Both the position numbers and the translations under genes were made by a program. From positions 1 through 38,245 of the IMG/VR virus record IMGVR_UViG_3300033407_000062: 38,245 nt of DNA. The stretch is one strand, 5' to 3'. Numbering within the stretch: position 1 is the first letter of the stretch; each line of letters begins with the position of its first letter. The stretch comes from a virus. Below the pieces are notes generated by a model that made no database searches, was not told the origin of the DNA, and saw nothing but the letters and a program-made list of their open reading frames with translations. This document shows positions 1,258 to 24,054 of the stretch, in pieces.

Positions 1258-1853
1258 TGCTCGCGCTCCTTCATCTGTGCGGCTTTCTCGAATTGGCGTG
1301 CTGGGTTTTTTTCACAGAATCTACTATGAGCATTCATAGATGCCAGCGTACCGCTTTTTCCGCATTGCCATTTGCATTCAATCTGCTCTGTCATTTTTTT
1401 GGATCTGCTCTTTCTGGCAGCAGACTGCTTGCCTCTGCTCCCGCTCTGCTTACCAGATTTAGCGGGCTTGCTCTCGTTTTCGACCAGACCGCGACCAGAT
1501 ATAAAACCAGCTAGAGCAGTTGCGCCATCAGGTAGAATGCCCCAAACCGCCGCCACAATTCCACGCCATATCGGATTTTGAATAACGTCAAGCCCATAAT
1601 AAATTGACGTGCCGATTATCACAGGACTTAGAGTCATGATTCCAATCATAGCTATCCATGATGACAGCTTCCTACCTTTGGCTATGGTGTTGATCTGACT
1701 GGAAGCGTATGCAGTAGTAAACGAAATTAATGCCCCCATCGAGCCGACCACAAATATACCGATCCACGAAAAGTATAAAAAGCCGCCAAACGCATACTGG
1801 ATCGTCTGCACAACCGCAGCATAAAAAGGGAGATGTTTTTTATTCAGCTTCAT
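1254..1853 (-). CDS. membrane protein (about 4 TM) with Lys/Ser/Arg-rich linker and C-terminal Cys/His cluster
   Basis: 199-aa ORF. Hydrophobic N-terminal two thirds, then a KSGKQSGSRGKQSAARKSRSKK linker, then C..C....H..C. Confidence 0.55.
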   Translation of the reverse strand: MKLNKKHLPFYAAVVQTIQYAFGGFLYFSWIGIFVVGSMGALISFTTAYASSQINTIAKGRKLSSWIAMIGIMTLSPVIIGTSIYYGLDVIQNPIWRGIVAAVWGILPDGATALAGFISGRGLVENESKPAKSGKQSGSRGKQSAARKSRSKKMTEQIECKWQCGKSGTLASMNAHSRFCEKNPARQFEKAAQMKEREQ

Positions 1854-2041
1854 TCGTCGGCCTCTTCCTCTTCAATATCAACTCCGTATTTATTCCAGGC
1901 ATTTTGTAGATGACCAGAATGGTGATTATTTTTATTCAACGAGCTAATATGAGTAGACCATCGTTGCTTTATATTCACAGCGGAGCCGACATAGAACTTC
2001 CCGTTGAGCGTGTTTTTGATTTGATAAATTCCACTAGCCAT
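1850..2041 (-). CDS. truncated GIY-YIG (I-TevI-like) nuclease, N-terminal ~55 aa of the catalytic domain only; probable homing-endonuclease remnant
   Basis: SGIYQIKNTLNGKFYVGSA...QRW..H...L......LQNAWNKYG closely matches the I-TevI N-terminus as I remember it. The ORF ends before the catalytic Glu and has no DNA-binding domain. Confidence 0.65.
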   Translation of the reverse strand: MASGIYQIKNTLNGKFYVGSAVNIKQRWSTHISSLNKNNHHSGHLQNAWNKYGVDIEEEEADE

Positions 2042-8347: not shown

Positions 8348-8376
8348 ATTATAACCGATGTGTATATAAACGTCAA
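8348..8376 (-). promoter_or_regulatory. strong sigma70-type early promoter (-35 TTGACG, 17 nt, -10 TATAAT)
   Basis: Reverse complement reads cTTGACGtttatatacacatcggtTATAATc, about 45 nt upstream of ATG 8299. Confidence 0.75.
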
Positions 8377-8621: not shown

Positions 8622-9064
8622 ATCGTAGGGACTACTTCCCATAAAGTCTTTTGCTCAATCGGGTGTGTGTCTACTCGCGGACGAGCTGTTCTATTCCACG
8701 TTCCGCCGCCCGCTTCGCCCAAACTGCGCCAGTTTGCAGATACAAGAGATGTGCCCGGCTCTGATTGCAAGGTGTAGGTAATTACGCGCTTATAACCAAG
8801 AGCAAAGGCGGCTCGGCTTGCAGCTCCGTAGAGCATTGACGGCGCGTTCTTTGTGCCATCGGTGGCGCAGCGTGTGACTTCAAGCGTCCAACCATCATCC
8901 AACATTCGAGCAACTGGACGCCCTACCGTGATTACGCCTACAACTTTTTCGCCATCATTCACGGCGATACCAAACTTCCAGCCTTGCGGCGGTAAGTGGT
9001 GACGATGCACGAGCTCAATAAACTTGCACGCTTCGGGGTATGTTATGGGCTGTAGATTCAACAT
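8561..9064 (-). CDS. GNAT-fold-like protein of the prophage-associated XF1762-like family (recalled from memory)
   Basis: Pattern HRHH.PP.G..F...V......VGV..VGRPVAR.LDDG.T.EVTR....G..NA.S.LYGA..RAA.ALGY.R..TY. Confidence 0.5.
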   Translation of the reverse strand: MLNLQPITYPEACKFIELVHRHHLPPQGWKFGIAVNDGEKVVGVITVGRPVARMLDDGWTLEVTRCATDGTKNAPSMLYGAASRAAFALGYKRVITYTLQSEPGTSLVSANWRSLGEAGGGTWNRTARPRVDTHPIEQKTLWEVVPTMPNKACTRQGLAVTDDEVFK

Positions 9065-9073
9065 TTCTTAGAT

Positions 9074-9096
9074 GCCTAACGGCAAGCGTTACCCGC
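9074..9096 (-). repeat. gene-junction motif copy (sense reading GCGGGTAACGCTTGCCGTTAGGC)
   Basis: Contains the TAA stop of 9089-9316 and lies 10 nt upstream of ATG 9064. Confidence 0.75.
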
Positions 9097-9316
9097 CCGC
9101 CGTGTTCGTAGAATCCGCCGCGCTGACCAGAGCCGAAGGAGGGTCGGTGTGCACGCATTGTTCGGCGTCTTTCACAATTGGGAAATCACACTCATAACAA
9201 CGCGACTTTGTTGGCTTGCGGGGGGATGTGACCCATTGCTCATGACCACATTCCAACTCACATAACCACTGTTTTTTATTGAGCGGGGATTTATCAGCCC
9301 GCAAAACTTTTACCAT
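9089..9316 (-). CDS. hypothetical Zn-ribbon protein
   Basis: 75-aa ORF with CELECGH and CYEC pairs. Confidence 0.5.
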   Translation of the reverse strand: MVKVLRADKSPLNKKQWLCELECGHEQWVTSPRKPTKSRCYECDFPIVKDAEQCVHTDPPSALVSAADSTNTAGG

Positions 9317-9339
9317 GACTACCTATCTTCTCGGCAGAC

Positions 9340-9362
9340 GCCGAACGATTTGCGTTAGCGGC
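9340..9362 (-). repeat. gene-junction motif copy, diverged (sense GCCGCTAACGCAAATCGTTCGGC)
   Basis: Aligned by eye to the other copies; lies 24 nt upstream of ATG 9316. Confidence 0.5.
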
Positions 9363-9412
9363 GATGTGGTGGACACCACCGCTAAAATTCAAAGGTTTCA
9401 CGACTTTCTTCA

Positions 9413-9471
9413 CGCGCCCCGTTCGGTGGACAAGCCACCCCGTTCTTTGGGGTGAGCGCAGCTCCACCGAA
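9413..9471 (-). repeat. 59-bp structured intergenic repeat, copy 1
   Basis: Its reverse complement is identical at all 59 nt to 18314-18372. Confidence 0.9.
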
Positions 9472-9499
9472 TAGCGCGAGCGTAAGCGGAAATGCCCGT

Positions 9500-9736
9500 T
9501 CATGGAAGCGGCGCATCCGTCCCGCATACATCGCAGTAAACACTACGATCTTCGAGCAAGGCTTTACACTCGGAACAATACCTAGCCGCTGGAATGGGTG
9601 TTTCCGCTTCACGCAGAGTTGGGCTGCGCGTGTCTAGCCAGTCCGCAAACTCTTTCAAAACCGTGTATTGCGACTCAGAAATACTGTACTCAGTAACATT
9701 GTTCATGTAGATAGCAAGTTCATCATCATACGACAT
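9500..9736 (-). CDS. hypothetical Zn-ribbon protein (78 aa, start MSYDDEL)
   Basis: Internal ATG preceded by AAAGGAAAAAGG. Contains CSEC....CDVCG. The 3' end (PLP-stop) is shared with 18425-18661. Confidence 0.5.
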   Translation of the reverse strand: MSYDDELAIYMNNVTEYSISESQYTVLKEFADWLDTRSPTLREAETPIPAARYCSECKALLEDRSVYCDVCGTDAPLP

Positions 9737-9803
9737 TTGCAACACCTTTTTCCTTTCATCCAAAGCGCAGGTCAATCTCTGCGTTTTCGCTCGCGCTATT
9801 GGG

Positions 9804-9850
9804 CTGACCAAGCCCCCCGCTCTTTGGGGAGTGAGCGCAGCTCCACCGAA
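9804..9850 (-). repeat. structured intergenic repeat, diverged copy 3
   Basis: Sense reading TTCGGTGGAGCTGCGCTCACTCCCCAAAGAGCGGGGGGCTTGGTC. The first 21 nt are identical to the other copies. Confidence 0.75.
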
Positions 9851-9921
9851 CTAGGTACTCGGTTGACAATGTCAGTTTTTTGCATAAATTACTGACATTG
9901 CCCCGATTAGTGACGGGGTTA

Positions 9922-10206
9922 TTAATTAGACACCATCTTCTCGATGGCGATCAGATCCGCAGGCGGTCCCGTCCGTGGGCGGTACTTCCGGAGGTTCGTC
10001 TGGAATTCATCGAGTATCTTTTGGAACTCCGCAAATATGATTTCCTCCGTTACGCCGTCCTGGAGCAGCACCTGCCTGAATTTCAGCGCGACGCCGCCCC
10101 AGGTTTCAGACTTTCCGATCAGCCTGCGCGCGATGGCGTCGTTCCTGAGATTCAGGACATCCACGCGGGAAAGCGTTGTCTTGTTTGGGTCTTTTTGTCT
10201 TGGCAT
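9922..10206 (-). CDS. hypothetical 94-aa protein (start MPRQKDPNK)
   Basis: The ATG is preceded by AAAAGGAGAATAATAAA and the conserved early leader. Confidence 0.5.
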   Translation of the reverse strand: MPRQKDPNKTTLSRVDVLNLRNDAIARRLIGKSETWGGVALKFRQVLLQDGVTEEIIFAEFQKILDEFQTNLRKYRPRTGPPADLIAIEKMVSN

Positions 10207-10230
10207 TTTATTATTCTCCTTTTCACAAGT

Positions 10231-10259
10231 ATTATACGTCAAAGTATATAAACGTGCTA
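10231..10259 (-). promoter_or_regulatory. early-promoter family member (-10 TATAAT, weak -35 TAGCAC), shares the GTATATAAACGT block
   Basis: Reverse complement reads gTAGCACgtttatatactttgacgTATAATacttgtgaaaaggag. Confidence 0.45.
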
Positions 10260-10264
10260 CGGGG

Positions 10265-10447
10265 TTATGATTTCCCCTCTGTCTGCTTGATAATATTTTT
10301 GATCTTTTTGATCTCTCTGATGCTTTTTCTTATCTGCTTACGCATGCTGTCTGTTTTTTTCTTTTCCGTCTTGAATATACCGCGCATACGCTTCTCCTGG
10401 TCTGCCATCTTATCCGCAATTATCTGTTCGTTTGATTTTCTGTTCAT
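10265..10447 (-). CDS. hypothetical Lys-rich coiled-coil-like protein (60 aa)
   Basis: Internal ATG with AAAGGAAA 6 nt upstream. The upstream extension of the 89-aa ORF is Cys/Arg-rich and implausible. Confidence 0.45.
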   Translation of the reverse strand: MNRKSNEQIIADKMADQEKRMRGIFKTEKKKTDSMRKQIRKSIREIKKIKNIIKQTEGKS

Positions 10448-10491
10448 CACAATTTCCTTTGTCCGCGAGCCATCAGCGCACGGACACAATT

Positions 10492-10608
10492 TTATTTTCC
10501 AAGTAGGTACAGAAGATACAGGCCGCCTGCACAAAGAAACATTACCCAGACGTATTCAACGAGCATCAGTAATATCCCGAGCAGGGTGTTTTTATCTTCG
10601 TCGTTCAT
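10492..10608 (-). CDS. small single-TM protein (38 aa, MNDEDKNTLLGILLMLVEYVWVMFLCAGGLYLLYLLGK)
   Basis: Not in the ORF track (shorter than 60 aa). TAATG overlap with the upstream gene; clear hydrophobic helix. Confidence 0.4.
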   Translation of the reverse strand: MNDEDKNTLLGILLMLVEYVWVMFLCAGGLYLLYLLGK

Positions 10609-10793
10609 TATGCGCTTCCAAGAGCGGCTTCGATCTCCGCCAGTTCGTTGATCAATTCATCGACCGTCTTGCTATCCATGAATAGCGTATGGGCAAAGGC
10701 GAATAATATCTGCTCACGGCGATCTTTGAGAAGCATTACCGCCGCTTCAATGTCTGTGGATGATGTGATTCTTTCGGTGAGGTCTTGGTTCAT
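10608..10793 (-). CDS. hypothetical 61-aa helical protein
   Basis: ORF coupled to its neighbours by 4-nt and 1-nt overlaps. Confidence 0.45.
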   Translation of the reverse strand: MNQDLTERITSSTDIEAAVMLLKDRREQILFAFAHTLFMDSKTVDELINELAEIEAALGSA

Positions 10794-11032
10794 CGTTTCA
10801 CCTTTGCGCTTGGTACGGCGGCGAGTAATGCTGCAACCTGTGCCTTAAGTATTTCCACTTCGTCGCGCAGGTCTTTGACGGTATCATCTTCCTCTTCGTA
10901 ATGAGTGCCGACCCACACATCCGGGCGATCTAATCCAGACTCAACACCACCGAACGGGCATTGCATAGTCTCCCAGTGATGCAAACCTTTCCAGCCGCCG
11001 CAATTCTTACAAGTATCTTTAGCCATTGTCAT
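10790..11032 (-). CDS. hypothetical Zn-finger plus coiled-coil protein
   Basis: CKNCGG...H.....CP followed by the heptad-like DLRDEVEILKAQVAALLAAV. Confidence 0.5.
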   Translation of the reverse strand: MTMAKDTCKNCGGWKGLHHWETMQCPFGGVESGLDRPDVWVGTHYEEEDDTVKDLRDEVEILKAQVAALLAAVPSAKVKR

Positions 11033-11043
11033 TGTATCCTTTT

Positions 11044-11068
11044 CCCGCCCTCCGTGATGGAGGGCGGG
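11044..11068. other. 10-bp GC-rich hairpin immediately upstream of the RBS of 10790-11032
   Basis: CCCGCCCTCC-gtgat-GGAGGGCGGG read directly. No U-run follows on the transcribed (minus) strand. Confidence 0.6.
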
Positions 11069-11134
11069 GCTAATGGGGGTCGGGTCATAAAGCCGATACT
11101 GCTGGCAGTCCTGCGGCTTTGCCCGTGAGGTGGG

Positions 11135-11266
11135 TTAGTTCTGGACAACCCTCACGCCGATGTTATGTGCTTTTGCCTCGGCGAGCGAGTCATACTTCTT
11201 GCAGGCAACCCCGTTCGTGCAGAGCCACCAAGAGCCGTCAATCTTTTCGAGTGTGTAGTCGGGCAT
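11135..11266 (-). CDS. hypothetical 43-aa protein (MPDYTLEKIDGSWWLCTNGVACKKYDSLAEAKAHNIGVRVVQN)
   Basis: Not in the ORF track. It starts with the same 24-nt RBS/start block as the 115-aa gene. Confidence 0.4.
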   Translation of the reverse strand: MPDYTLEKIDGSWWLCTNGVACKKYDSLAEAKAHNIGVRVVQN

Positions 11267-11287
11267 TGTTATTTCCTTTTCGCAAGT
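11264..11287. repeat. 24-bp perfect direct repeat, copy 1 (CATTGTTATTTCCTTTTCGCAAGT)
   Basis: Identical to 11614-11637. The two copies exactly bracket gene 11269-11616. Confidence 0.9.
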
Positions 11288-11616
11288 GTGGTATAGAGTC
11301 CAGTCACTTCGGTGAATAACTCTTGAAGCATATCGTTATAAATTCCTTCGTGCGTTGAAACTTCCTTGAATGATGCACCGCGTATCTTGAAGAATGTTAC
11401 CGTGTAGGTGTCCATTGCATCGAGTACGATCTTGATATGGTTAGCATTACGGCTTCCCATAAATTTGAAAGCCAGATTTGCGCTTTCCGCTTTTTCATCG
11501 TAGGTGATGAAGCGTGCGCCAGTCATGGCGATGAATTGACGCCCGCCGAGTTGGTTCATTATTTCCATCGCCTGGTATTTACGTTCTGAGATTTCAGTTG
11601 TCGCTTCGGTTGTCAT
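11269..11616 (-). CDS. conserved hypothetical phage/plasmid protein (115 aa)
   Basis: First gene after the divergent early promoter; globular-looking sequence (..MEIMNQLGGRQFIAMTGA..). Confidence 0.6.
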   Translation of the reverse strand: MTTEATTEISERKYQAMEIMNQLGGRQFIAMTGARFITYDEKAESANLAFKFMGSRNANHIKIVLDAMDTYTVTFFKIRGASFKEVSTHEGIYNDMLQELFTEVTGLYTTLAKRK

Positions 11617-11637
11617 TGTTATTTCCTTTTCGCAAGT
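11614..11637. repeat. 24-bp perfect direct repeat, copy 2
   Basis: Identical to 11264-11287. Confidence 0.9.
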
Positions 11638-11661
11638 TCAGACCGTGTTGTCTGTACCCCA

Positions 11662-11690
11662 AATATACCATGAGCGTATATAAACGTCAA
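11662..11690 (-). promoter_or_regulatory. leftward early promoter (-35 TTGACG, 17 nt, -10 TATATT)
   Basis: Reverse complement reads cTTGACGtttatatacgctcatggTATATTt, about 45 nt upstream of ATG 11616. Confidence 0.7.
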
Positions 11691-11728
11691 GGGGAATAAC
11701 CTGCCAATCCGTAAACTGATCTCAATGG

Positions 11729-11757
11729 TTGACTTTTATTTATAGGTGTTGTATTAT
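11729..11757 (+). promoter_or_regulatory. rightward promoter (-35 TTGACT, 17 nt, -10 TATTAT), same core family as the early promoters
   Basis: gTTGACTtttatttataggtgttgTATTATt read directly, 38 bp from the leftward -35. Confidence 0.65.
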
Positions 11758-11763
11758 TGACTT

Positions 11764-12048
11764 ACGACGTCGCCTCATAACTATCGGGTACCGTGTAAAG
11801 CCACGGTCAGGCGCAACCCTCCCGAACGCCGTTTTGATTGAACAACCTTTTAGTGAGGGGAGCGGTTTCATAGATGTGTTGAGGAAACAACAAAATTCCC
11901 ATCGTGAATGTAATCCGCTCCCCAATGATTTTGATAGCTTTAGAGTTGGGCGCGACGCTAAATACTCAGACCTGTCATAGTAGTAGAGAAGAAATTTTCA
12001 GGTAAATAACGCGCAGGGCATCCAGAAATGGGTGCCCTTTTTTTATTT
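11764..12048 (+). ncRNA. about 285-nt non-coding leader transcript bounded by promoter and terminator, upstream of the whole rightward arm
   Basis: No ORF with a start codon and RBS. Internal stems include ACCGTG/CACGGT and GGGGAGCGG/CCGCTCCCC. It ends in a strong terminator. The 5' end is only inferred from the -10 position. Confidence 0.45.
12015..12048 (+). terminator. strong intrinsic terminator (10-bp stem, GAAA loop, T7 run)
   Basis: AGGGCATCCA-gaaa-TGGGTGCCCT, whose closing T begins the run TTTTTTTATTT. Confidence 0.85.
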
Positions 12049-12098
12049 GCAAAGGCCCTGAACGGTACAAACACGGCAAAAGAGGTTATACTGACAAT

Positions 12099-12692
12099 AT
12101 GAAGCCGATCACCTGGACAAATACCCAGTGTAAATTATCACAACTCAAAGAATGGGATAAGAACCCCGTGCGGATTTCTGGCGACGACCTGAAACACCTG
12201 GCCGAGAGCGTCAAGAAGTTTCGAGGCGTCCTGCCGTATGTCGCAGCGGGGCCGATGGTCAAGGGAAGTTATCCACTACTCGACGGACACCAACGCAAGC
12301 GCGCGGAGTTGGAAGTAAACAAAGTCGCGCCCGATCTGCTTGTCGATGTGCGTGTCCCGTCCAGAAAGTTGACGGCGAAGGAACGCTCCGAGATCGTGAT
12401 CCGCCTGCGAAAAAATCAGGGAGAATTCGACGATAAATTACTGCTTGAAAATTTCAAAGACTTCCCCATGATTGAATTCGGTTTCAGTGAAAAGGAATTG
12501 AAGGACTTCGGTTTCGATCCGCCTGAGAGCAAGGACGCAGAGCCTGAGATAGACCGCGCGGCGGAGTTGTTGAAGAAGTGGAAGGTAAAGACGGGCGACT
12601 TGTTCGCTATCGGTGACCATCGCTTGATATGCGGCGACTGTACTGACGCGGCGGTAGTGGCGCGGGTGATGGGGGGGAGAAGGCGCGAATGA
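12099..12692 (+). CDS. ParB-like nuclease-domain protein (N-terminal half of a ParB-MTase architecture)
   Basis: ..LLDGHQRKRAE.. ParB/Srx-like motif. The C-terminus ..GDHRLICGDCTDAAVVARVMGG is the usual linker that precedes TDPPY in fused ParB-methylases. Confidence 0.65.
   Translation: MKPITWTNTQCKLSQLKEWDKNPVRISGDDLKHLAESVKKFRGVLPYVAAGPMVKGSYPLLDGHQRKRAELEVNKVAPDLLVDVRVPSRKLTAKERSEIVIRLRKNQGEFDDKLLLENFKDFPMIEFGFSEKELKDFGFDPPESKDAEPEIDRAAELLKKWKVKTGDLFAIGDHRLICGDCTDAAVVARVMGGRRRE
12671..12677. repeat. G7 homopolymer at the ParB-domain/MTase junction
   Basis: Read directly. One extra G would fuse the two ORFs in frame. Confidence 0.9.
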
Positions 12693-13354
12693 CTATTACA
12701 GATCCGCCGTGGAATGTTGCAATTGGTACAGACAGAAATCCGCGCCACAGACAAAGAGAAGGTCTCCAGAACGACAATATGTCGGACGATGATTATTCTT
12801 TATTTGTCGATGCTTTTATATCGTCCATTGAGCAGAATTGTGCAGGAGATGTTTACTGCAAGGTTGCGTCTGAATACATGGACATTATTGGTGGTATTTT
12901 TAGGGAAAAGAAGTTTCATTGGTCAGCCACTGTCATTTGGGTAAAAGATATATTTGTTTTGGGTAGGTCGAAATACCACAGGAGATACGAGCCACTCTGG
13001 TATGGGTGGCACAGTAAATCAAAGAGTTCCTTCTGTGACGCGCGCGATTTGGACGATGTTTGGGAAATCAAGCGTCCACGTGTTAGTGAGGAACACCCAA
13101 CCATGATGCCCGTTGAGTTACCAGAACGCGCAATTAGAAATTCAAGCAAAGCAGGAGATGTTGTATTCGAGCCATTCGTTGGCTCCGGCACCACCCTCGT
13201 TGCCTGTCAGAACTTAGGTAGGCGCGGACGCGGTATTGAAATAAGTCCAGCTTATTGCGCCGTTACCCTCGAACGTATGGCGACGGCATTTCCAAAACTA
13301 AAAATAACCAAACTCCCTAAGAAAAAGAAGTCATTAAGTCGTGTAGACAACTAA
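12689..13354 (+). CDS. N6-adenine/N4-cytosine DNA methyltransferase (beta-class order: DPPW then FxGxG)
   Basis: MTITDPPWNV at the N-terminus; EPFVGSGTTLVACQNLGRRGRGIEI near the C-terminus. Confidence 0.8.
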   Translation: MTITDPPWNVAIGTDRNPRHRQREGLQNDNMSDDDYSLFVDAFISSIEQNCAGDVYCKVASEYMDIIGGIFREKKFHWSATVIWVKDIFVLGRSKYHRRYEPLWYGWHSKSKSSFCDARDLDDVWEIKRPRVSEEHPTMMPVELPERAIRNSSKAGDVVFEPFVGSGTTLVACQNLGRRGRGIEISPAYCAVTLERMATAFPKLKITKLPKKKKSLSRVDN

Positions 13355-13461
13355 TTACCCATGTATCAATTCATGACTATTCTCAAAATAAATAACGCTC
13401 GATCCCGCCTGTTTGTACGGATTTCCCAGTCGCCAGATTCGCGTTTGTTGGGGTTTGTATA

Positions 13462-15189
13462 ATGGCGAAGAAGAAGCGCACAGAGCCGCAGAGACTTCTC
13501 GACCTGCCTGTTATCGAAGCGTTATCAATCAAGGGATGGTTACAAAAGGATATAGTCGATCACCTTAACGAAATACGCCCCTATAAATTGACACAGCAAC
13601 AAGTGTCTTACGACATCGCTCAAATCCGTGAGCGCTGGGTCGAAGCCGCCACCCAGGAGATACTCGAATCCCGTGGACGCGTGCTTGCGACCCTGCGCGT
13701 TCAGCAGGAGGAAGCCTGGCGCGGATGGGTACGCAGCACCGAACCGATCAAGGTCACGCAAAAGCGCATCACCGAAGGTCCACAGGGGACAACGAAGGAA
13801 ATGACCGAGCGCACCGAAGAGGGCAAATGGGACAAGGGCTTTTTGGATGTCGTAACCGCGAACATAAAAAGCTACCGCGATATTTTAGGCATGGACGCGC
13901 CGAAGCAGGAAAAGGGCGACCTGCTAAACCCATCCGATAAGCCGCAGAATATCACCATCCCCGCCGACGTTATCGCGCCCGATATGCTGGCGTCCTATCG
14001 CGCGATCAAGTCGGGGCAGTATCATGAATTTCTGGAAGAGGGCGGGCGCGGTAGTACCAAGTCGTCATTCATAAGTATGATGTGCATTGAGTTGTTGATC
14101 AACAATCCCGACGTGCACATGCTGGCCTCCCGTCAAGTCGGTAACACGATGCGGGATAGTGTCTACGCACAACTCAAATGGGCTATCGGCGAACTCGGAT
14201 TATCCGACCTGTTCAAGACCATCACGAACCCGATGGAGATCACCTACCTGCCGACCGATCAAAAGATATATTTCCGCGGGATGGATGATGTCGGCAAAAT
14301 AAAATCAATTACACCCGTCAAGGGTTATATCGGTATTTTCTGGCTGGAGGAAGCAGATCAGGCACGCGGCCCCGAAGCGATCCGTAAGGTCGAGCAGAGT
14401 CTACGCGGCGGTGAAAAGATGTGGTTCTTCAAGTCGTGGAACACCCCCCGCCCGCTGAAGCATTGGATTAATCAATACGTCCTGACCCCCAAGAAAAAGC
14501 AATACCATCACAAAAGCAATTATATGAATGTACCGCGCGAATGGCTGGGGAGTATCTTCATCGAGGAAGCCGAACACCTGCGACAAGTCAATCCGAAAGC
14601 CTATGCCAATGAATACATGGGCGAAGCGACCGGCTTGGGCGGTACGGTATTCGAGAACGTGGTAGGCAGGGAGATCACCGATAAAGAGATCAAGCAGTTC
14701 GACCAGGTTGGGCAGGGCATGGATTACGGCTGGTTCCCTGATCCGTTCGTATGGACGCGCAGCCACTTTGACGCCGCCCGCCTGAAACTGTATATTTTCG
14801 ATGAATACCACGTAAATAAAAAGCGCAATAAAGCCGTGTATAACTATCTGGTCAAAGAAAAGCACATCGACAAATACAAGAATGAATTAGTTATCGGCGA
14901 CTCAGCATCACCGAAAGACGTGGCCGACTTCCGCGAGTACGGCATGAACATACGCGGAGCAGAGAAGGGCCCCGACTCAGTTGATTATTCCATGAAGTGG
15001 TTGCAGGGATTGGTCGAGATCGTCATTGACCCCGTGCGCTGTCCGTACACACTAAAGGAATTCTATTCTTACGAATTGGAGCAGAACAAAGATGGTGAAT
15101 TCATCAGTTCCTATCCAGACCGTGATAACCACTCGATTGATTCTGTGCGCTATCGAACTAATCTGCTATGGCGTCGTCGCGGTCAATGA
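13462..15189 (+). CDS. terL: terminase large subunit (PBSX/XtmB-like) with an extra ~170-aa N-terminal HTH-like region
   Basis: Walker A EEGGRGSTKS. Terminase-like motifs follow. The gene sits before the portal gene. Confidence 0.8.
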   Translation: MAKKKRTEPQRLLDLPVIEALSIKGWLQKDIVDHLNEIRPYKLTQQQVSYDIAQIRERWVEAATQEILESRGRVLATLRVQQEEAWRGWVRSTEPIKVTQKRITEGPQGTTKEMTERTEEGKWDKGFLDVVTANIKSYRDILGMDAPKQEKGDLLNPSDKPQNITIPADVIAPDMLASYRAIKSGQYHEFLEEGGRGSTKSSFISMMCIELLINNPDVHMLASRQVGNTMRDSVYAQLKWAIGELGLSDLFKTITNPMEITYLPTDQKIYFRGMDDVGKIKSITPVKGYIGIFWLEEADQARGPEAIRKVEQSLRGGEKMWFFKSWNTPRPLKHWINQYVLTPKKKQYHHKSNYMNVPREWLGSIFIEEAEHLRQVNPKAYANEYMGEATGLGGTVFENVVGREITDKEIKQFDQVGQGMDYGWFPDPFVWTRSHFDAARLKLYIFDEYHVNKKRNKAVYNYLVKEKHIDKYKNELVIGDSASPKDVADFREYGMNIRGAEKGPDSVDYSMKWLQGLVEIVIDPVRCPYTLKEFYSYELEQNKDGEFISSYPDRDNHSIDSVRYRTNLLWRRRGQ

Positions 15190-15271
15190 CATCGAATGAC
15201 CCACGCAAATGGAATGAGCATTTACTTCGCAGGCGCACGATTAAGCAGTACACTAGATACATGAGGCAATT

Positions 15272-16789
15272 ATGAATAATTTTATATCGTCCATTTGGAA
15301 CTGGATCAAAGGAGTATTTGGCATGAATCAAACTCAAATAAATAAGGCATTTAATATAACCCTGATGGATGTCTCGACCCCGATGGTTGAGGCTCTTTTG
15401 TTATGGTCGAAGCTGTACAAGAATGAGGCAGACTGGACAACCGCCGACACCCCCAGCCTGTCGCTCCCATCCGCTATCGCTGGCGAAATCGCGCGCCTCA
15501 CGACCATAGAAATGGAAGTCAATATCACCGGGAAGAAACCCGACCAGGCACCCGATACAACCGCGCCCGTCGAGCCTGCCCCTTCCAAGCGTGCGGATTA
15601 CCTGTCTATACAATTTGATAAGGTGATGAGCCGACTAAGAGAGGAAGTCGAATACGGATGCGCGAAGGGCGGGATGGTCATCAAACCATACGTCAACGGT
15701 AAAGAGATCGCCTTCAACTTTGTGCAGGCTGATGAGTTTTTCCCGATTGAGTTCGACGCCAATGACGCAATGGTAGATGTTGTATTCTCCGACCAGCGTA
15801 AGATCGGCGATACCTATTACACGCGCCTGGAACGTCACACGATGGGGGATACCGTTATCAATGGCAAACCACGACGCGGATGCAATATCATCAACAAGGC
15901 GTACAAATCCAGCACTCAGGAAACACTTGGCAGCGAGATCGAATTATCAAGCGTTCCCGCATGGGCTGAACTCGAAGGCGACAAGTGGATCGCGCCGCTG
16001 GATAAACCCTTATTCTCTTACTTCAAGTTCCCGCAAGCCAACAACATAGACACCGCGTCCCCCCTGGGCGTCTCGTGCTACGCGCGCGCGGCGATGGGTA
16101 CAAATCCGCTGATCAAACAAGCGGATGATATTTGGTCTAATTTCCTGTGGGAGTTTGAGTCTGGCAAGCGGGCCATCGACGTGGATGAACTGGCGTTCGA
16201 CCGCGACTCTAACGATAACCCCATCCTGCCGAACCGCCGACTATATAGAACTTATAAACAGAGCGGTACAAGTATTGGCGCGGGCGGGGATCTGTTTAAG
16301 GAATGGACGCCGACTCTGCGAGAACAGAATATACTCGCAGGGCTGAACGCGATATTGAAGCGGATCGAGTTTGTGACATCATTGGCCTATGGCACGCTCT
16401 CCGATCCGAACCTGGTCGATAAAACGGCGACTGAAATTGTGTCACAGAAACAAAGGTCATACGCCCTTGTTAGTGATACTCAAAAGGCATTACAAGCAAC
16501 AATAGAGCAGACGGTTTGGGCTATGAATGCGTGGGCAGATATTAATAAGCTGTCTCCGCGCGGAGATTATGACGTTAGTTGCGACTTCGATGATTCTCTC
16601 ATTGTAGATAGTCAGGCGCAATTCTCTCAGGATCAACAGGCGGTTGGAATGTCTGCCATGTCTAAACAAAAATTCCTGGAACGTAACTACGGGCTGACGC
16701 CATCGGCCGCGCAGCTGTGGGTCAAGGAAGCGCAGGAGGAGCGCCCGCCCGTTGATCTATTCTCGAATCTGGATGAAACAGGATCGTAG
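15272..16789 (+). CDS. portal protein (SPP1 gp6-like)
   Basis: 505-aa ORF after terL with GAGG RBS. Size, position and acidic C-terminus are typical of portals. Confidence 0.7.
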   Translation: MNNFISSIWNWIKGVFGMNQTQINKAFNITLMDVSTPMVEALLLWSKLYKNEADWTTADTPSLSLPSAIAGEIARLTTIEMEVNITGKKPDQAPDTTAPVEPAPSKRADYLSIQFDKVMSRLREEVEYGCAKGGMVIKPYVNGKEIAFNFVQADEFFPIEFDANDAMVDVVFSDQRKIGDTYYTRLERHTMGDTVINGKPRRGCNIINKAYKSSTQETLGSEIELSSVPAWAELEGDKWIAPLDKPLFSYFKFPQANNIDTASPLGVSCYARAAMGTNPLIKQADDIWSNFLWEFESGKRAIDVDELAFDRDSNDNPILPNRRLYRTYKQSGTSIGAGGDLFKEWTPTLREQNILAGLNAILKRIEFVTSLAYGTLSDPNLVDKTATEIVSQKQRSYALVSDTQKALQATIEQTVWAMNAWADINKLSPRGDYDVSCDFDDSLIVDSQAQFSQDQQAVGMSAMSKQKFLERNYGLTPSAAQLWVKEAQEERPPVDLFSNLDETGS

Positions 16790-23079: not shown

Positions 23080-23350
23080 AAGCCACAGGAGCTCCCCTAA
23101 CCGCCCTGATTTCATGGGGACACTAGATGACCTGTGTGGCGTAGTGTAAGGTAGAATAGGCTCATGCCAACCGAACCAGAGATGAACAGAGAGTTTTTAG
23201 CCTTCCTGCAATTCCTTTACAGCCTGTGCAAACAGTATTGCTCGTGGTACGAAACTCACATCAAAAAGGAACGTAATTAATGCTATACTAAAACTAACTA
23301 CAGTGCAGGGCGCACCGCGTCACGCACAACCCTATAAGCAGGACTCATAA

Positions 23351-23400
23351 GAGCCATGCTGAGCGACAGAGAATATCTGTTATCAGCGTGGCTCTTTTTT
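23351..23400 (+). terminator. intrinsic terminator before the scaffold/capsid genes
   Basis: GAGCCATGCTGA...TCAGCGTGGCTC, a 12-bp stem with one G-U pair, followed by T6. Confidence 0.75.
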
Positions 23401-23496
23401 GTTTAGTCAATCGGCTATCCGCGAAGCCTAAAAGGCGCGGGCATCTGACGGAGAAGACCGTCTAAAACAATCTATATGTGAAACGGAGTAAATCAA

Positions 23497-24054
23497 ATGA
23501 ATAAGAAACAATTGACCGACCTGGGTATCGAAGAAGAAGTTGCAGATCAGATCATCGTTTTGCATGGCAAGGACATCGAGAAACACAAAGGCGATATTAC
23601 CACCCTGCAAACCGAACTTGATACCGCCAACGCCAGCTTGACCGAAGCAGGCCAGACCATTGAGAAATTCAAAGGTATGGACATCGACGCGATCAAGCAG
23701 GCCGCCGAAGATTACAAGGTTGAAGCCGAAAAAGCCAAGACCGAAGCGGCGGAGCAGATCCTATCGCTGAAACGCGGTCACGCCCTGGATGAAGCCCTGA
23801 AAGGCTCGTACAAGGTCAAGGACATCAAAGCGGTCAAGGCTTATCTGGATGATGAGAAGATCCAATTCAACGAGAAAGACGGTTCGTTTGTCGGCCTCAA
23901 GGAACAGATCGACCCATTGCTGACAGAAAAAGATTATCTATTCATTGACGAATCCGAAACGCCGAAGATCGTGGATGGCGCTAAATCTAAATCAGTACTA
24001 CCAGATGCTTTCGACGCCGCAATGAAGAAGGGCGCGGGCATCCCAACCGAATAA
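23497..24054 (+). CDS. scaffolding protein
   Basis: Acidic, helical 185-aa ORF directly before the capsid gene, with GGAG RBS. Confidence 0.7.
   Translation: MNKKQLTDLGIEEEVADQIIVLHGKDIEKHKGDITTLQTELDTANASLTEAGQTIEKFKGMDIDAIKQAAEDYKVEAEKAKTEAAEQILSLKRGHALDEALKGSYKVKDIKAVKAYLDDEKIQFNEKDGSFVGLKEQIDPLLTEKDYLFIDESETPKIVDGAKSKSVLPDAFDAAMKKGAGIPTE

What the first reader, a model, noticed from the sequence alone, without database searches (positions are those of the whole stretch)
11729..12048. Promoter, ~285-nt structured leader and strong terminator placed in front of the entire late arm (lambda PR'-tR'-like logic)
TTGACT-17-TATTAT (11729-11757) is followed by about 285 nt without a translatable ORF. 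The stretch ends in a textbook terminator at 12015-12048: a 10-bp stem, a GAAA loop and a T7 run. That is 50 nt before the first rightward gene (12099).

I see only one further intrinsic terminator (23351-23400) and no other obvious promoter in the 26-kb rightward arm.

Established analogy: lambda PR' makes the short 6S transcript ending at tR' unless Q antiterminates. HK022 uses cis-acting put RNA.

Inference: late expression here may depend on antitermination or a riboswitch-like decision within this leader. Alternatively the leader is a stand-alone regulatory RNA. No Q-like protein is recognisable among the small early ORFs.
Basis: partly seen in the sequence, partly recalled or inferred. 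Interest (0 to 1): 0.62.

Follow-up and report, generated by a model that had tools for sequence, protein, structure and literature searches.

The report
Optional small-RNA cassette in a phage
The promoter, ~280-nt untranslated RNA and strong terminator ahead of this phage's structural genes form one 363-bp add-on cassette that nearly identical wild phages lack, so it is most likely an optional small-RNA gene and not the switch for late genes.

Summary
There is a sigma-70-type promoter (11729-11757), about 280 nt with no credible ORF, and the strongest plus-strand intrinsic terminator in the genome (12015-12048), 50 nt before gene 12099.

The new result is that these three parts form one indel. 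Window 11694-12056 (363 bp) is present in three 100%-identical assemblies. Four contigs from four other samples lack it at the same junctions. Three are 99-99.8% identical in the aligned flanks and one is 92-97% identical. All four carry a conserved 37-41-nt filler instead. Relatives with the same right-arm start region therefore lack this promoter and terminator.

The promoter carries the extended signature of the phage's own leftward early promoters. No antiterminator pairing is predicted, no Rfam family matches, and Pfam and PHROGs find no Q-, RinA- or sigma-like protein. No homologue of the RNA turned up anywhere I could search.

Best reading (about 0.55): an accessory, moron-like, early-expressed stand-alone small RNA of unknown target. 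Its one long accessible loop reads CAACCCUCCCGAA, which resembles an anti-Shine-Dalgarno sequence. The lambda PR'-tR'-like late switch is not supported.

Interest is modest: a new member of a known kind.

The parts
11694..12056 (+). 363-bp indel cassette holding the promoter, the RNA and the terminator. It replaces a conserved 37-41-nt filler found in cassette-less relatives.
   Evidence: Alignments of L023, L028, L030 and L032 to the window break at 11693/11696 and resume at 12057. L027 and L035 carry the cassette at 100% identity.
11729..11757 (+). Sigma-70-type promoter TTGACT-17-TATTAT of the phage's early class (P_RNA).
   Evidence: Consensus scan, 10/12. The motif TTGACNTTTATNTA is shared only with leftward promoters 8376- and 11690-; 0 of 100 shuffles reach three matches.
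11764..12045 (+). Predicted ~280-nt non-coding transcript. The 5' end is inferred as 7 nt after the -10 box; the 3' end is in the T-run.
   Evidence: No ORF with a Shine-Dalgarno sequence; the 83-codon frame has no protein relative. MFE -88.9 kcal/mol, z -3.2. No Rfam family. Ends are not measured.
11810..11830 (+). Hairpin GGCG/CGCC with a 13-nt loop CAACCCUCCCGAA (11814-11826). This is the candidate seed and resembles an anti-Shine-Dalgarno sequence.
   Evidence: It is the only stretch longer than 6 nt with unpaired probability above 0.7 in the partition function. A seed function is inference.
11857..11923 (+). Long hairpin closed by GGGGAGCGGUUU / AAUCCGCUCCCC.
   Evidence: Inverted repeat I4: 12-nt arms, 92% complementary. 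Present in both the MFE and centroid structures.
12015..12048 (+). Intrinsic terminator: 10-bp stem, GAAA loop, T7 run.
   Evidence: Scan. Pair probabilities 0.89-1.0, and the 5' arm is free in co-transcriptional folds, so no antiterminator is predicted.
12057..12098 (+). Conserved 42-43-nt leader of the first right-arm gene, shared by cassette-bearing and cassette-less phages. It contains GAGG 13 nt upstream of the ATG, and TATACT (12087-12092) 6 nt upstream of it.
   Evidence: Identical in L023, L028 and L030, and one SNP in the more distant L032. A promoter or leaderless-start role is inference only. The cassette-less intergenic region shows no sigma-70 consensus rightward promoter.
11662..11690 (-). 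Leftward early promoter TTGACG-17-TATATT. Its -35 box lies 3 nt from the left junction of the cassette, and it is kept in all variants.
   Evidence: Scans of the window and of L023.

Best explanation
Window 11694-12056 is a self-contained accessory transcription unit, a 'moron' whose cargo is an RNA and not a protein. It sits in the divergent control region between the leftward early arm and the rightward methylase/terminase/structural arm. An early-class sigma-70 promoter fires at about 11764. The transcript of about 280 nt folds into several hairpins and ends at a strong intrinsic terminator, so most transcription stops before gene 12099.

I infer that the product acts in trans as a small regulatory RNA early in infection. 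The most likely seed is its one long exposed loop, CAACCCUCCCGAA, which could pair with G-rich Shine-Dalgarno regions of host or phage mRNAs.

Shown here: the anatomy, the indel, the promoter class, the lack of an ORF and the lack of an antiterminator alternative. Inferred: that the RNA is made, that it is stable and that it acts in trans. The target is unknown.
For: 1. **Indel with identical junctions.** The cassette is present in the window, L027 and L035, all 100% identical. It is absent from L023, L028, L030 and L032, which come from four other samples. Those four share a conserved 37-41-nt filler that carries its own SNPs.
2. **Cassette-less is the older state by parsimony.** The cassette-less allele also occurs in the more diverged lineage L032 (92-97% identity).
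3. **All parts lie inside the indel.** Promoter and terminator both fall within it, in the right order and orientation. That is the textbook moron layout (PMC3594210; PMC10914365 citing Juhala et al. 2000).
4. **Early-class promoter.** It shares TTGACNTTTATNTA with the phage's two strongest leftward promoters.
5. **No coding potential.** No ORF has a ribosome-binding site, and the longest frame has no protein relative.
6. **Terminator forms unopposed.** Pair probability is about 1 with no competing helix, as expected for a terminated stand-alone RNA and not for an expression platform.
7. **More structure than shuffles.** z = -3.2 with the terminator.
Against:
- All three cassette copies are identical and no homologue was found, so there is no covariation and no sign of selection on the RNA.
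- Without the terminator hairpin the fold is only marginally better than shuffles (z -1.9).
- No target inside the phage stands out. The best duplexes with 59 translation-initiation regions lie within the background distribution.
- The cassette's G+C content (about 44%) does not differ from its surroundings, unlike classic morons.
- The cassette replaced 37-41 nt of ancestral intergenic DNA, and the cassette-less relatives show no sigma-70 consensus rightward promoter. I cannot exclude that right-arm expression in this phage now depends on P_RNA read-through.
Confidence: 0.55

Rival explanations
1. P_RNA is the promoter of the right (late) arm, and the leader plus terminator is a checkpoint opened by a phage antiterminator or a ligand, as with lambda PR'-6S-tR'/Q.
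For: The unit sits directly upstream of the whole rightward arm. It is the only consensus rightward promoter there. The terminator is strong. Cassette-less relatives show no sigma-70 consensus rightward promoter either. If the ancestral promoter lay in the replaced filler, this phage would need read-through.
Against: Four related contigs (three 99-99.8% identical in the aligned flanks, one 92-97%) lack promoter, leader and terminator yet keep the same right-arm start. The promoter is of the early class. Pfam and PHROGs find no Q, RinA/ArpU, sigma or other antiterminator-like protein. No alternative antiterminator helix is predicted. No Rfam riboswitch or leader family matches.
Confidence: 0.12
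2. A leaky early promoter module. The cassette's selected function is to add an early promoter in front of the ParB-methyltransferase genes. The terminator merely attenuates this transcription, and the RNA itself has no function.
For: The first downstream genes encode a DNA methyltransferase (phrog_498), a function phages often need early. P_RNA is early-class.
Against: A 10-bp/T7 terminator with pair probability about 1 would block most of the added transcription. A 250-nt structured spacer is not needed for that purpose. In this very phage the methyltransferase reading frame is split at a G7 tract.
Confidence: 0.1
3. A non-functional remnant. The promoter and terminator once flanked a protein-coding moron whose ORF has decayed, or the segment is recombination debris.
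For: No homologue was found anywhere searched. The fold without the terminator is weak (z -1.9). The RNA contains an RBS-like AGGAAACAACAA resembling the leftward genes' AGGAAATAACAATG but lacking a start codon (repeat I3). Only one lineage carries it.
Against: No frame retains a recognisable decayed ORF; the frame from the RBS-like site stops after four codons (read). Promoter and terminator are both intact and near consensus. The cassette-bearing genome was assembled at 100% identity from three datasets, so it circulates successfully.
Confidence: 0.15
4. A small protein or leader peptide is encoded, for example the 33-codon GTG frame 11904-12005. Its stop lies 10 nt before the terminator stem, so a terminating ribosome could mask the stem, as in pyrBI-type attenuation.
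For: The frame exists and ends at 12003-12005, close to stem start 12015.
Against: No Shine-Dalgarno sequence lies at a usable distance: GAGGA is 18 nt before the GTG and nothing precedes the internal ATG. By contrast, most genes of this phage have AAGGA/GGAG 6-9 nt upstream. The peptide has no transmembrane-length hydrophobic run. There are no homologues to test for conservation.
Confidence: 0.04

Closest known systems
Phage morons: autonomous promoter-gene-terminator modules added between conserved genes. First described in HK97/HK022 (Juhala et al. 2000; reviewed in PMC3594210).
   Same: Extra DNA relative to nearly identical relatives, with its own promoter and its own terminator, inserted at a boundary between functional modules.
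   Different: The cargo appears to be a non-coding RNA and not a protein. G+C content does not differ from the neighbourhood. This genome shows no sign of lysogeny: Pfam and PHROGs found no integrase or repressor in the ORFs tested. The classic rationale of expression from a repressed prophage may therefore not apply.
Lambda PR' - 6S RNA - tR' with Q antitermination (my own knowledge of the lambda literature).
   Same: A consensus promoter, a short terminated transcript and a strong terminator lie immediately upstream of the structural and lysis arm.
   Different: No Q-like protein is found. The module is dispensable in close relatives. The promoter belongs to the early class. I could not establish a Q-binding element or a sigma-dependent pause site. 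The transcript is about 280 nt, against 194 nt in lambda.
Phage- and prophage-encoded regulatory RNAs, such as lambda OOP and the BTP1 antisense RNA STnc6030 that excludes superinfecting phage (PMC7067206), and the ncRNA candidates seen by ONT-cappable-seq in Pseudomonas phages (PMC10914365).
   Same: An independently transcribed, non-coding, accessory RNA carried by a phage. The function could be regulation of host or competitor-phage mRNAs.
   Different: It is not antisense to any phage gene. No significant complementarity to this phage's translation-initiation regions or to the cassette-less leader was found. It shares no sequence or Rfam relationship with any described phage RNA.
HK022 put RNA and other cis-acting antitermination or riboswitch leaders (my own knowledge).
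   Same: A structured RNA directly downstream of a promoter and upstream of a terminator.
   Different: No alternative structure competes with the terminator. No aptamer family matches. The element is absent from close relatives that have the same downstream operon.

Membership tests
Lambda-type PR'-tR'/Q late switch | A Q-family antiterminator gene in the early or delayed-early region | tested here: not met
   No Pfam or PHROG hit to Q or any antiterminator, RinA/ArpU or sigma family among the left-arm ORFs tested. Very divergent proteins could escape detection.
Lambda-type PR'-tR'/Q late switch | The module is the obligatory entry to the late operon and is therefore kept in close relatives | tested here: not met
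   Four contigs from four samples lack 11694-12056 and keep the same right-arm start region. Three are 99-99.8% identical in the aligned flanks and one is 92-97%.
Lambda-type PR'-tR'/Q late switch | A Q-binding element in the promoter and a sigma-dependent promoter-proximal pause site | not testable with these tools
   No model is available for such sites in an unknown host-phage pair, and I did not search the initial transcribed region for one.
Moron (autonomous accessory transcription unit) | Extra DNA compared with closely related phages | tested here: met
   363 bp here against a 37-41-nt filler in relatives, at identical junctions.
Moron (autonomous accessory transcription unit) | Own promoter and own terminator | tested here: met
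   Both are predicted inside the indel. This rests on sequence prediction only; no transcript data exist.
Moron (autonomous accessory transcription unit) | Base composition differs from the flanking genes | tested here: not met
   G+C is 0.44-0.45 across 11400-12200, the same as the flanks.
Riboswitch / transcription-attenuation leader | A known aptamer or leader family | tested here: not met
   Rfam 15 gives nothing at gathering thresholds. At E <= 10 there are only terminator-like noise hits.
Riboswitch / transcription-attenuation leader | A mutually exclusive antiterminator/terminator pairing | tested here: not met
   In folds of 11764-12014, -12026 and -12028 the 5' arm stays unpaired. In the full ensemble the terminator pairs at p 0.89-1.0. 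This is thermodynamic prediction only.
Trans-acting base-pairing sRNA | Own promoter, Rho-independent terminator and no ORF | tested here: met
Trans-acting base-pairing sRNA | An accessible seed with a statistically supported target | tested here: inconclusive
   One exposed 13-nt loop, CAACCCUCCCGAA, is predicted. Duplexes with 59 phage translation-initiation regions are no better than background (best -28.2 kcal/mol against a background 1st percentile of -29.4). The host is unknown, so host targets are untestable.
Trans-acting base-pairing sRNA | Conservation or covariation among homologues | tested here: not met
   No homologue was found in:
- INPHARED phages
- PLSDB plasmids
- IMG/VR pattern scans
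- a JGI metagenome pattern scan
- 401 genomes of the phylum of G001
- all loci fetched

The three known copies are identical.
RNA anti-CRISPR (solitary repeat unit) | A full CRISPR-repeat-like unit | tested here: not met
   There are no internal repeats. The 9-bp stem GGGGAGCGG/CCGCUCCCC also forms the stem of a CRISPR repeat in the unrelated high-GC contig L092. There the half-sites are in the opposite order and 2 nt apart, against 43 nt here. I treat this as chance.

The most novel reading that the evidence does not exclude
The RNA is an early-expressed weapon in phage-host or phage-phage conflict. It could be a decoy or sponge that titrates a host RNA-binding defence or translation factor. 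It could also be a riboregulator that gives the cassette-bearing phage an edge over the co-circulating cassette-less variants. That would be a new, family-less class of anti-defence or competition RNA carried as a swappable cassette at the early/late control region.
Probability: 0.1. Interest if true: 0.7.

Novelty: new member of a known kind. Interest (0 to 1): 0.3.

Why it matters
If the RNA is made, it is an orphan ~280-nt phage small RNA with a natural knockout already circulating in the same environments. That gives a ready comparison for asking what an accessory phage RNA does.

It also corrects the regulatory map of this phage. The only consensus rightward promoter is not the late promoter. 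Related phages without the cassette show no sigma-70 consensus promoter for the right arm, so how that arm is switched on remains unexplained. Candidates are an activator-dependent promoter or a leaderless start within the conserved 43 nt at 12057-12098.

The practical lesson for annotation is that a promoter-leader-terminator triplet in front of an operon need not be a control element of that operon.

Tried and rejected
**Known RNA families.** Rfam at gathering thresholds on the whole genome found nothing. At E <= 10 on 11600-12120 it gave only terminator look-alikes and noise. ARAGORN found no tRNA or tmRNA.

**Searches for homologues.**
- blastn 'distant' against INPHARED phages, megablast of 9000-16000 and PLSDB plasmids: nothing.
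- Exact or gapped IMG/VR scans with four pieces of the RNA found no relative. The stem pattern GGGGAGCGG-N35-60-CCGCTCCCC gave 50 loci, none similar beyond the stems (nhmmer). One of them is a CRISPR array (L092), which I judged coincidental.
- A scan with the conserved right-flank leader also found nothing.
- JGI metagenome scans with an RNA 20-mer and with the left flank found nothing. The flank scan also failed to find the JGI contigs that I know carry this sequence, so that collection evidently does not hold them.
- In 401 genomes of the phylum of G001 (the Fumia xinanensis genome, source of the only genome hit to TerL), I found only a 64-nt, 76%-identical stretch in a 5' UTR (L038). It has no terminator and no Rfam family. 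I left this unresolved; it is probably chance.

**Synteny.** ParB-like relatives (L002-L019, L024-L026) and relatives of the 115-aa gene (L020-L022, L041-L046) carry no similar RNA. Their divergent intergenic regions, where present, are 174-185 nt or unrelated.

**Protein-coding reading.** The 83-codon frame has no relative.

**Targets inside the phage.** Full-length duplexfold output was meaningless because it allowed huge loops. A windowed scan found nothing above background. This includes the 17-nt complementarity 11856-11872 / 12098-12114 over the start codon of gene 12099 and the cassette-less filler.

**Other checks.**
- TATACT as a recurring late -10 box is not enriched.
- The motif GGTACARACANCACGG, which I read by eye in both divergent leaders, was matched by the scan only in the leftward leader plus one site at chance level. 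The rightward copy has a one-base gap and was not matched.
- The cassette shares no repeat with the phage's attC-type sites or with any other part of the genome.

Full report
**What the window is.** The window is a complete 38,245-bp virus record with direct terminal repeats.
- Genes from about 11616 leftward form an early/replication arm: a DnaD/O-like initiator, a DnaC-like loader, RecT, a Mom-like protein and an FtsK-like protein.
- Genes from 12099 rightward begin with a ParB-N/DNA-methyltransferase pair, followed by the large terminase, the portal and the rest of the structural genes.
- The finding lies in the 482-nt divergent intergenic region between the two arms.

**Observation.** All the anatomical statements hold.
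- The promoter TTGACT-17-TATTAT is at 11729-11757, and the terminator (10-bp stem, GAAA loop, T7) is at 12015-12048.
- Hexamer matches alone are near chance density. However, the promoter shares the longer motif TTGACNTTTATNTA with exactly two other sites, the best leftward promoters at 8376 and 11690. Chance expectation is 0.14, and 0 of 100 shuffles reach three matches. An earlier first-reader note (e1-3422245) had pointed to this reiterated promoter; I tested and confirm it.
- The terminator is the best plus-strand terminator in the scans of 1-31999, and its pairs have probability 0.89-1.0.
- The ~285 nt between promoter and terminator hold no ORF with a ribosome-binding site. The 83-codon TTG frame that starts in the -35 box has no protein relative.
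- The RNA folds better than all 200 shuffles when the terminator is included (z -3.2), but only marginally better without it (z -1.9).

**The key new fact: the unit is an indel.** Looking up contigs that encode exactly the neighbouring proteins returned seven informative assemblies.
- *Cassette present.* L027 (Logan SRR10376053) and L035 (ENA ERZ27256991, a 38,238-bp contig) are 100% identical to the window across the region and contain the unit.
- *Cassette absent.* L023/L029 (JGI 3300037705), L028 (ENA ERZ27256803), L030 (JGI 3300037704) and L032 (JGI 3300037722) do not contain it.
- *Junctions.* The alignments of L023, L028 and L032 stop at 11693-11696 and resume at 12057. In between sits a conserved filler, TAAAATGCAAACTCGTTTCGCCCCCGCAAGCCAGTAACCTC, which carries a few SNPs of its own. 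L030 begins inside this filler.
- *Flanks.* The aligned flanks of L023, L028 and L030 are 99.0-99.8% identical to the window. In L023 and L028 the left flank shows no rise in divergence near the junction.
- *Direction.* L032 is a more distant lineage (92-97% identical) and also lacks the cassette. By parsimony the cassette-less state is ancestral, and the 363-bp segment 11694-12056 was acquired in the window's lineage, replacing 37-41 nt.

Promoter, RNA and terminator all lie inside this segment. The segment has no terminal repeats, no target-site duplication and no similarity to any other part of the genome, including the attC-type sites noted by other readers.

- Related phages keep the same first right-arm gene and the same 43-nt upstream leader (12057-12098: identical in three contigs, one SNP in L032). 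They have no P_RNA and no terminator, so the unit cannot be the general late switch of this phage type.
- The promoter is of the early class.
- Pfam and PHROGs find no Q-like, RinA/ArpU-like, sigma-like or other antitermination protein.
- Rfam 15 gives nothing at gathering thresholds and only terminator-like noise at E <= 10.
- Folding of co-transcriptional intermediates shows the 5' arm of the terminator free, with no competing helix. This argues against a riboswitch or attenuator expression platform.

One caveat remains. The cassette-less intergenic region has no sigma-70 consensus rightward promoter either, so the true right-arm promoter is unidentified. It may lie in the conserved 43 nt. 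There, TATACT ends 6 nt before the ATG, which would fit a leaderless start; this is inference only, and TATACT is not enriched genome-wide. If the promoter instead lay in the replaced filler, this phage would depend on read-through from P_RNA.

**Best explanation.** The segment has the layout of a moron: extra DNA with its own promoter and terminator (PMC3594210; PMC10914365). The difference is that its cargo is an RNA. I read it as an accessory, early-expressed, stand-alone small RNA of about 280 nt. Its only long stretch with high unpaired probability is the 13-nt hairpin loop CAACCCUCCCGAA (11814-11826). The CCUCC core matches the anti-Shine-Dalgarno sequence, so pairing with G-rich ribosome-binding sites is a plausible mode of action. 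That is inference. A windowed duplex scan against 59 translation-initiation regions of the phage gave nothing beyond background. Neither the start region of gene 12099 nor the cassette-less leader is a significant partner. The host is unknown, so host targets could not be tested.

**Homologues.** None was found. The searches covered:
- INPHARED phages and PLSDB plasmids;
- IMG/VR pattern scans (filtered);
- JGI metagenome pattern scans, a collection that evidently lacks the relevant samples;
- 401 genomes of the phylum of G001, the Fumia xinanensis genome, which gave only a 64-nt, 76% hit in a 5' UTR (L038) that I could not substantiate;
- syntenic regions of more distant relatives.

The RNA is therefore an orphan, and no covariation test is possible.

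**Rivals.**
- The late-switch model keeps about 0.12, mainly because the right-arm promoter is unidentified.
- A 'leaky early promoter for the methyltransferase' reading gets about 0.10.
- A decayed or non-functional remnant gets about 0.15.
- A leader peptide or small protein gets about 0.04.

**Verdict.** This is a new, orphan member of a known kind (phage accessory transcription units and phage-encoded small RNAs). The useful extra is a natural presence/absence pair. Interest is modest (0.3).

Noticed in passing
window 23413-23474 (+): Sub-threshold match to the Rfam cis-regulatory motif GP20-b (RF03003): 29.7 bits against a gathering score of 36.2, E 1.3e-4. It lies in the 5' UTR of the head gene that starts at 23497.
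   Followed up: no
window 23282-23400 (+): A second promoter-to-terminator mini-unit inside the right arm. An extended -10, TGCTATACT, lies at 23282-23290 (read). About 100 nt follow, ending in a long hairpin plus T6. The fold is -49.7 kcal/mol with z -7.3. It could be another small RNA or the 3' end of the upstream operon.
   Followed up: partly
window 12671-12677; L028: The ParB-N/methyltransferase gene is split at a G7 tract in the window, L023 and L030. In the 99.4%-identical contig L028 the tract is G8 and the gene is one fused ORF. L023 also has a TTG-to-TAG nonsense change at 12625.
   Followed up: partly
window 11264-11637; L032: L032 lacks the 115-aa gene. Its alignment shows a deletion exactly between the two 24-bp direct repeats 11264-11287 and 11614-11637.
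   Followed up: partly
L030 2197-2624 vs window 14224-14651: The large terminase gene is mosaic among close relatives. L030 is 99% identical to the window up to 13913 but only 68% identical in 14224-14651.
   Followed up: no
window 1850-2041 (-): A 63-aa ORF matches the GIY-YIG catalytic domain (E 2.2e-10). It is probably a fragment of, or a short, homing-endonuclease-like gene.
   Followed up: no
window 11643-11658 (-) and 12063-12077 (+): Both divergent leaders carry a similar 15-16-nt element in the same orientation relative to their genes: GGTACAGACAACACGG and GGTACAAACACGG. This could be an operator or a shared 5'-UTR element. It was read by eye; the pattern scan with 3 mismatches matched only the first copy, because of a gap in the second.
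   Followed up: partly
L038 1500-1583 (a bacterial genome from the phylum of G001): A 64-84-nt stretch in a 5' UTR is 76% identical to window 11940-12005, the part of the RNA just before the terminator. No terminator follows it and no Rfam family matches. It is probably chance but remains unresolved.
   Followed up: partly
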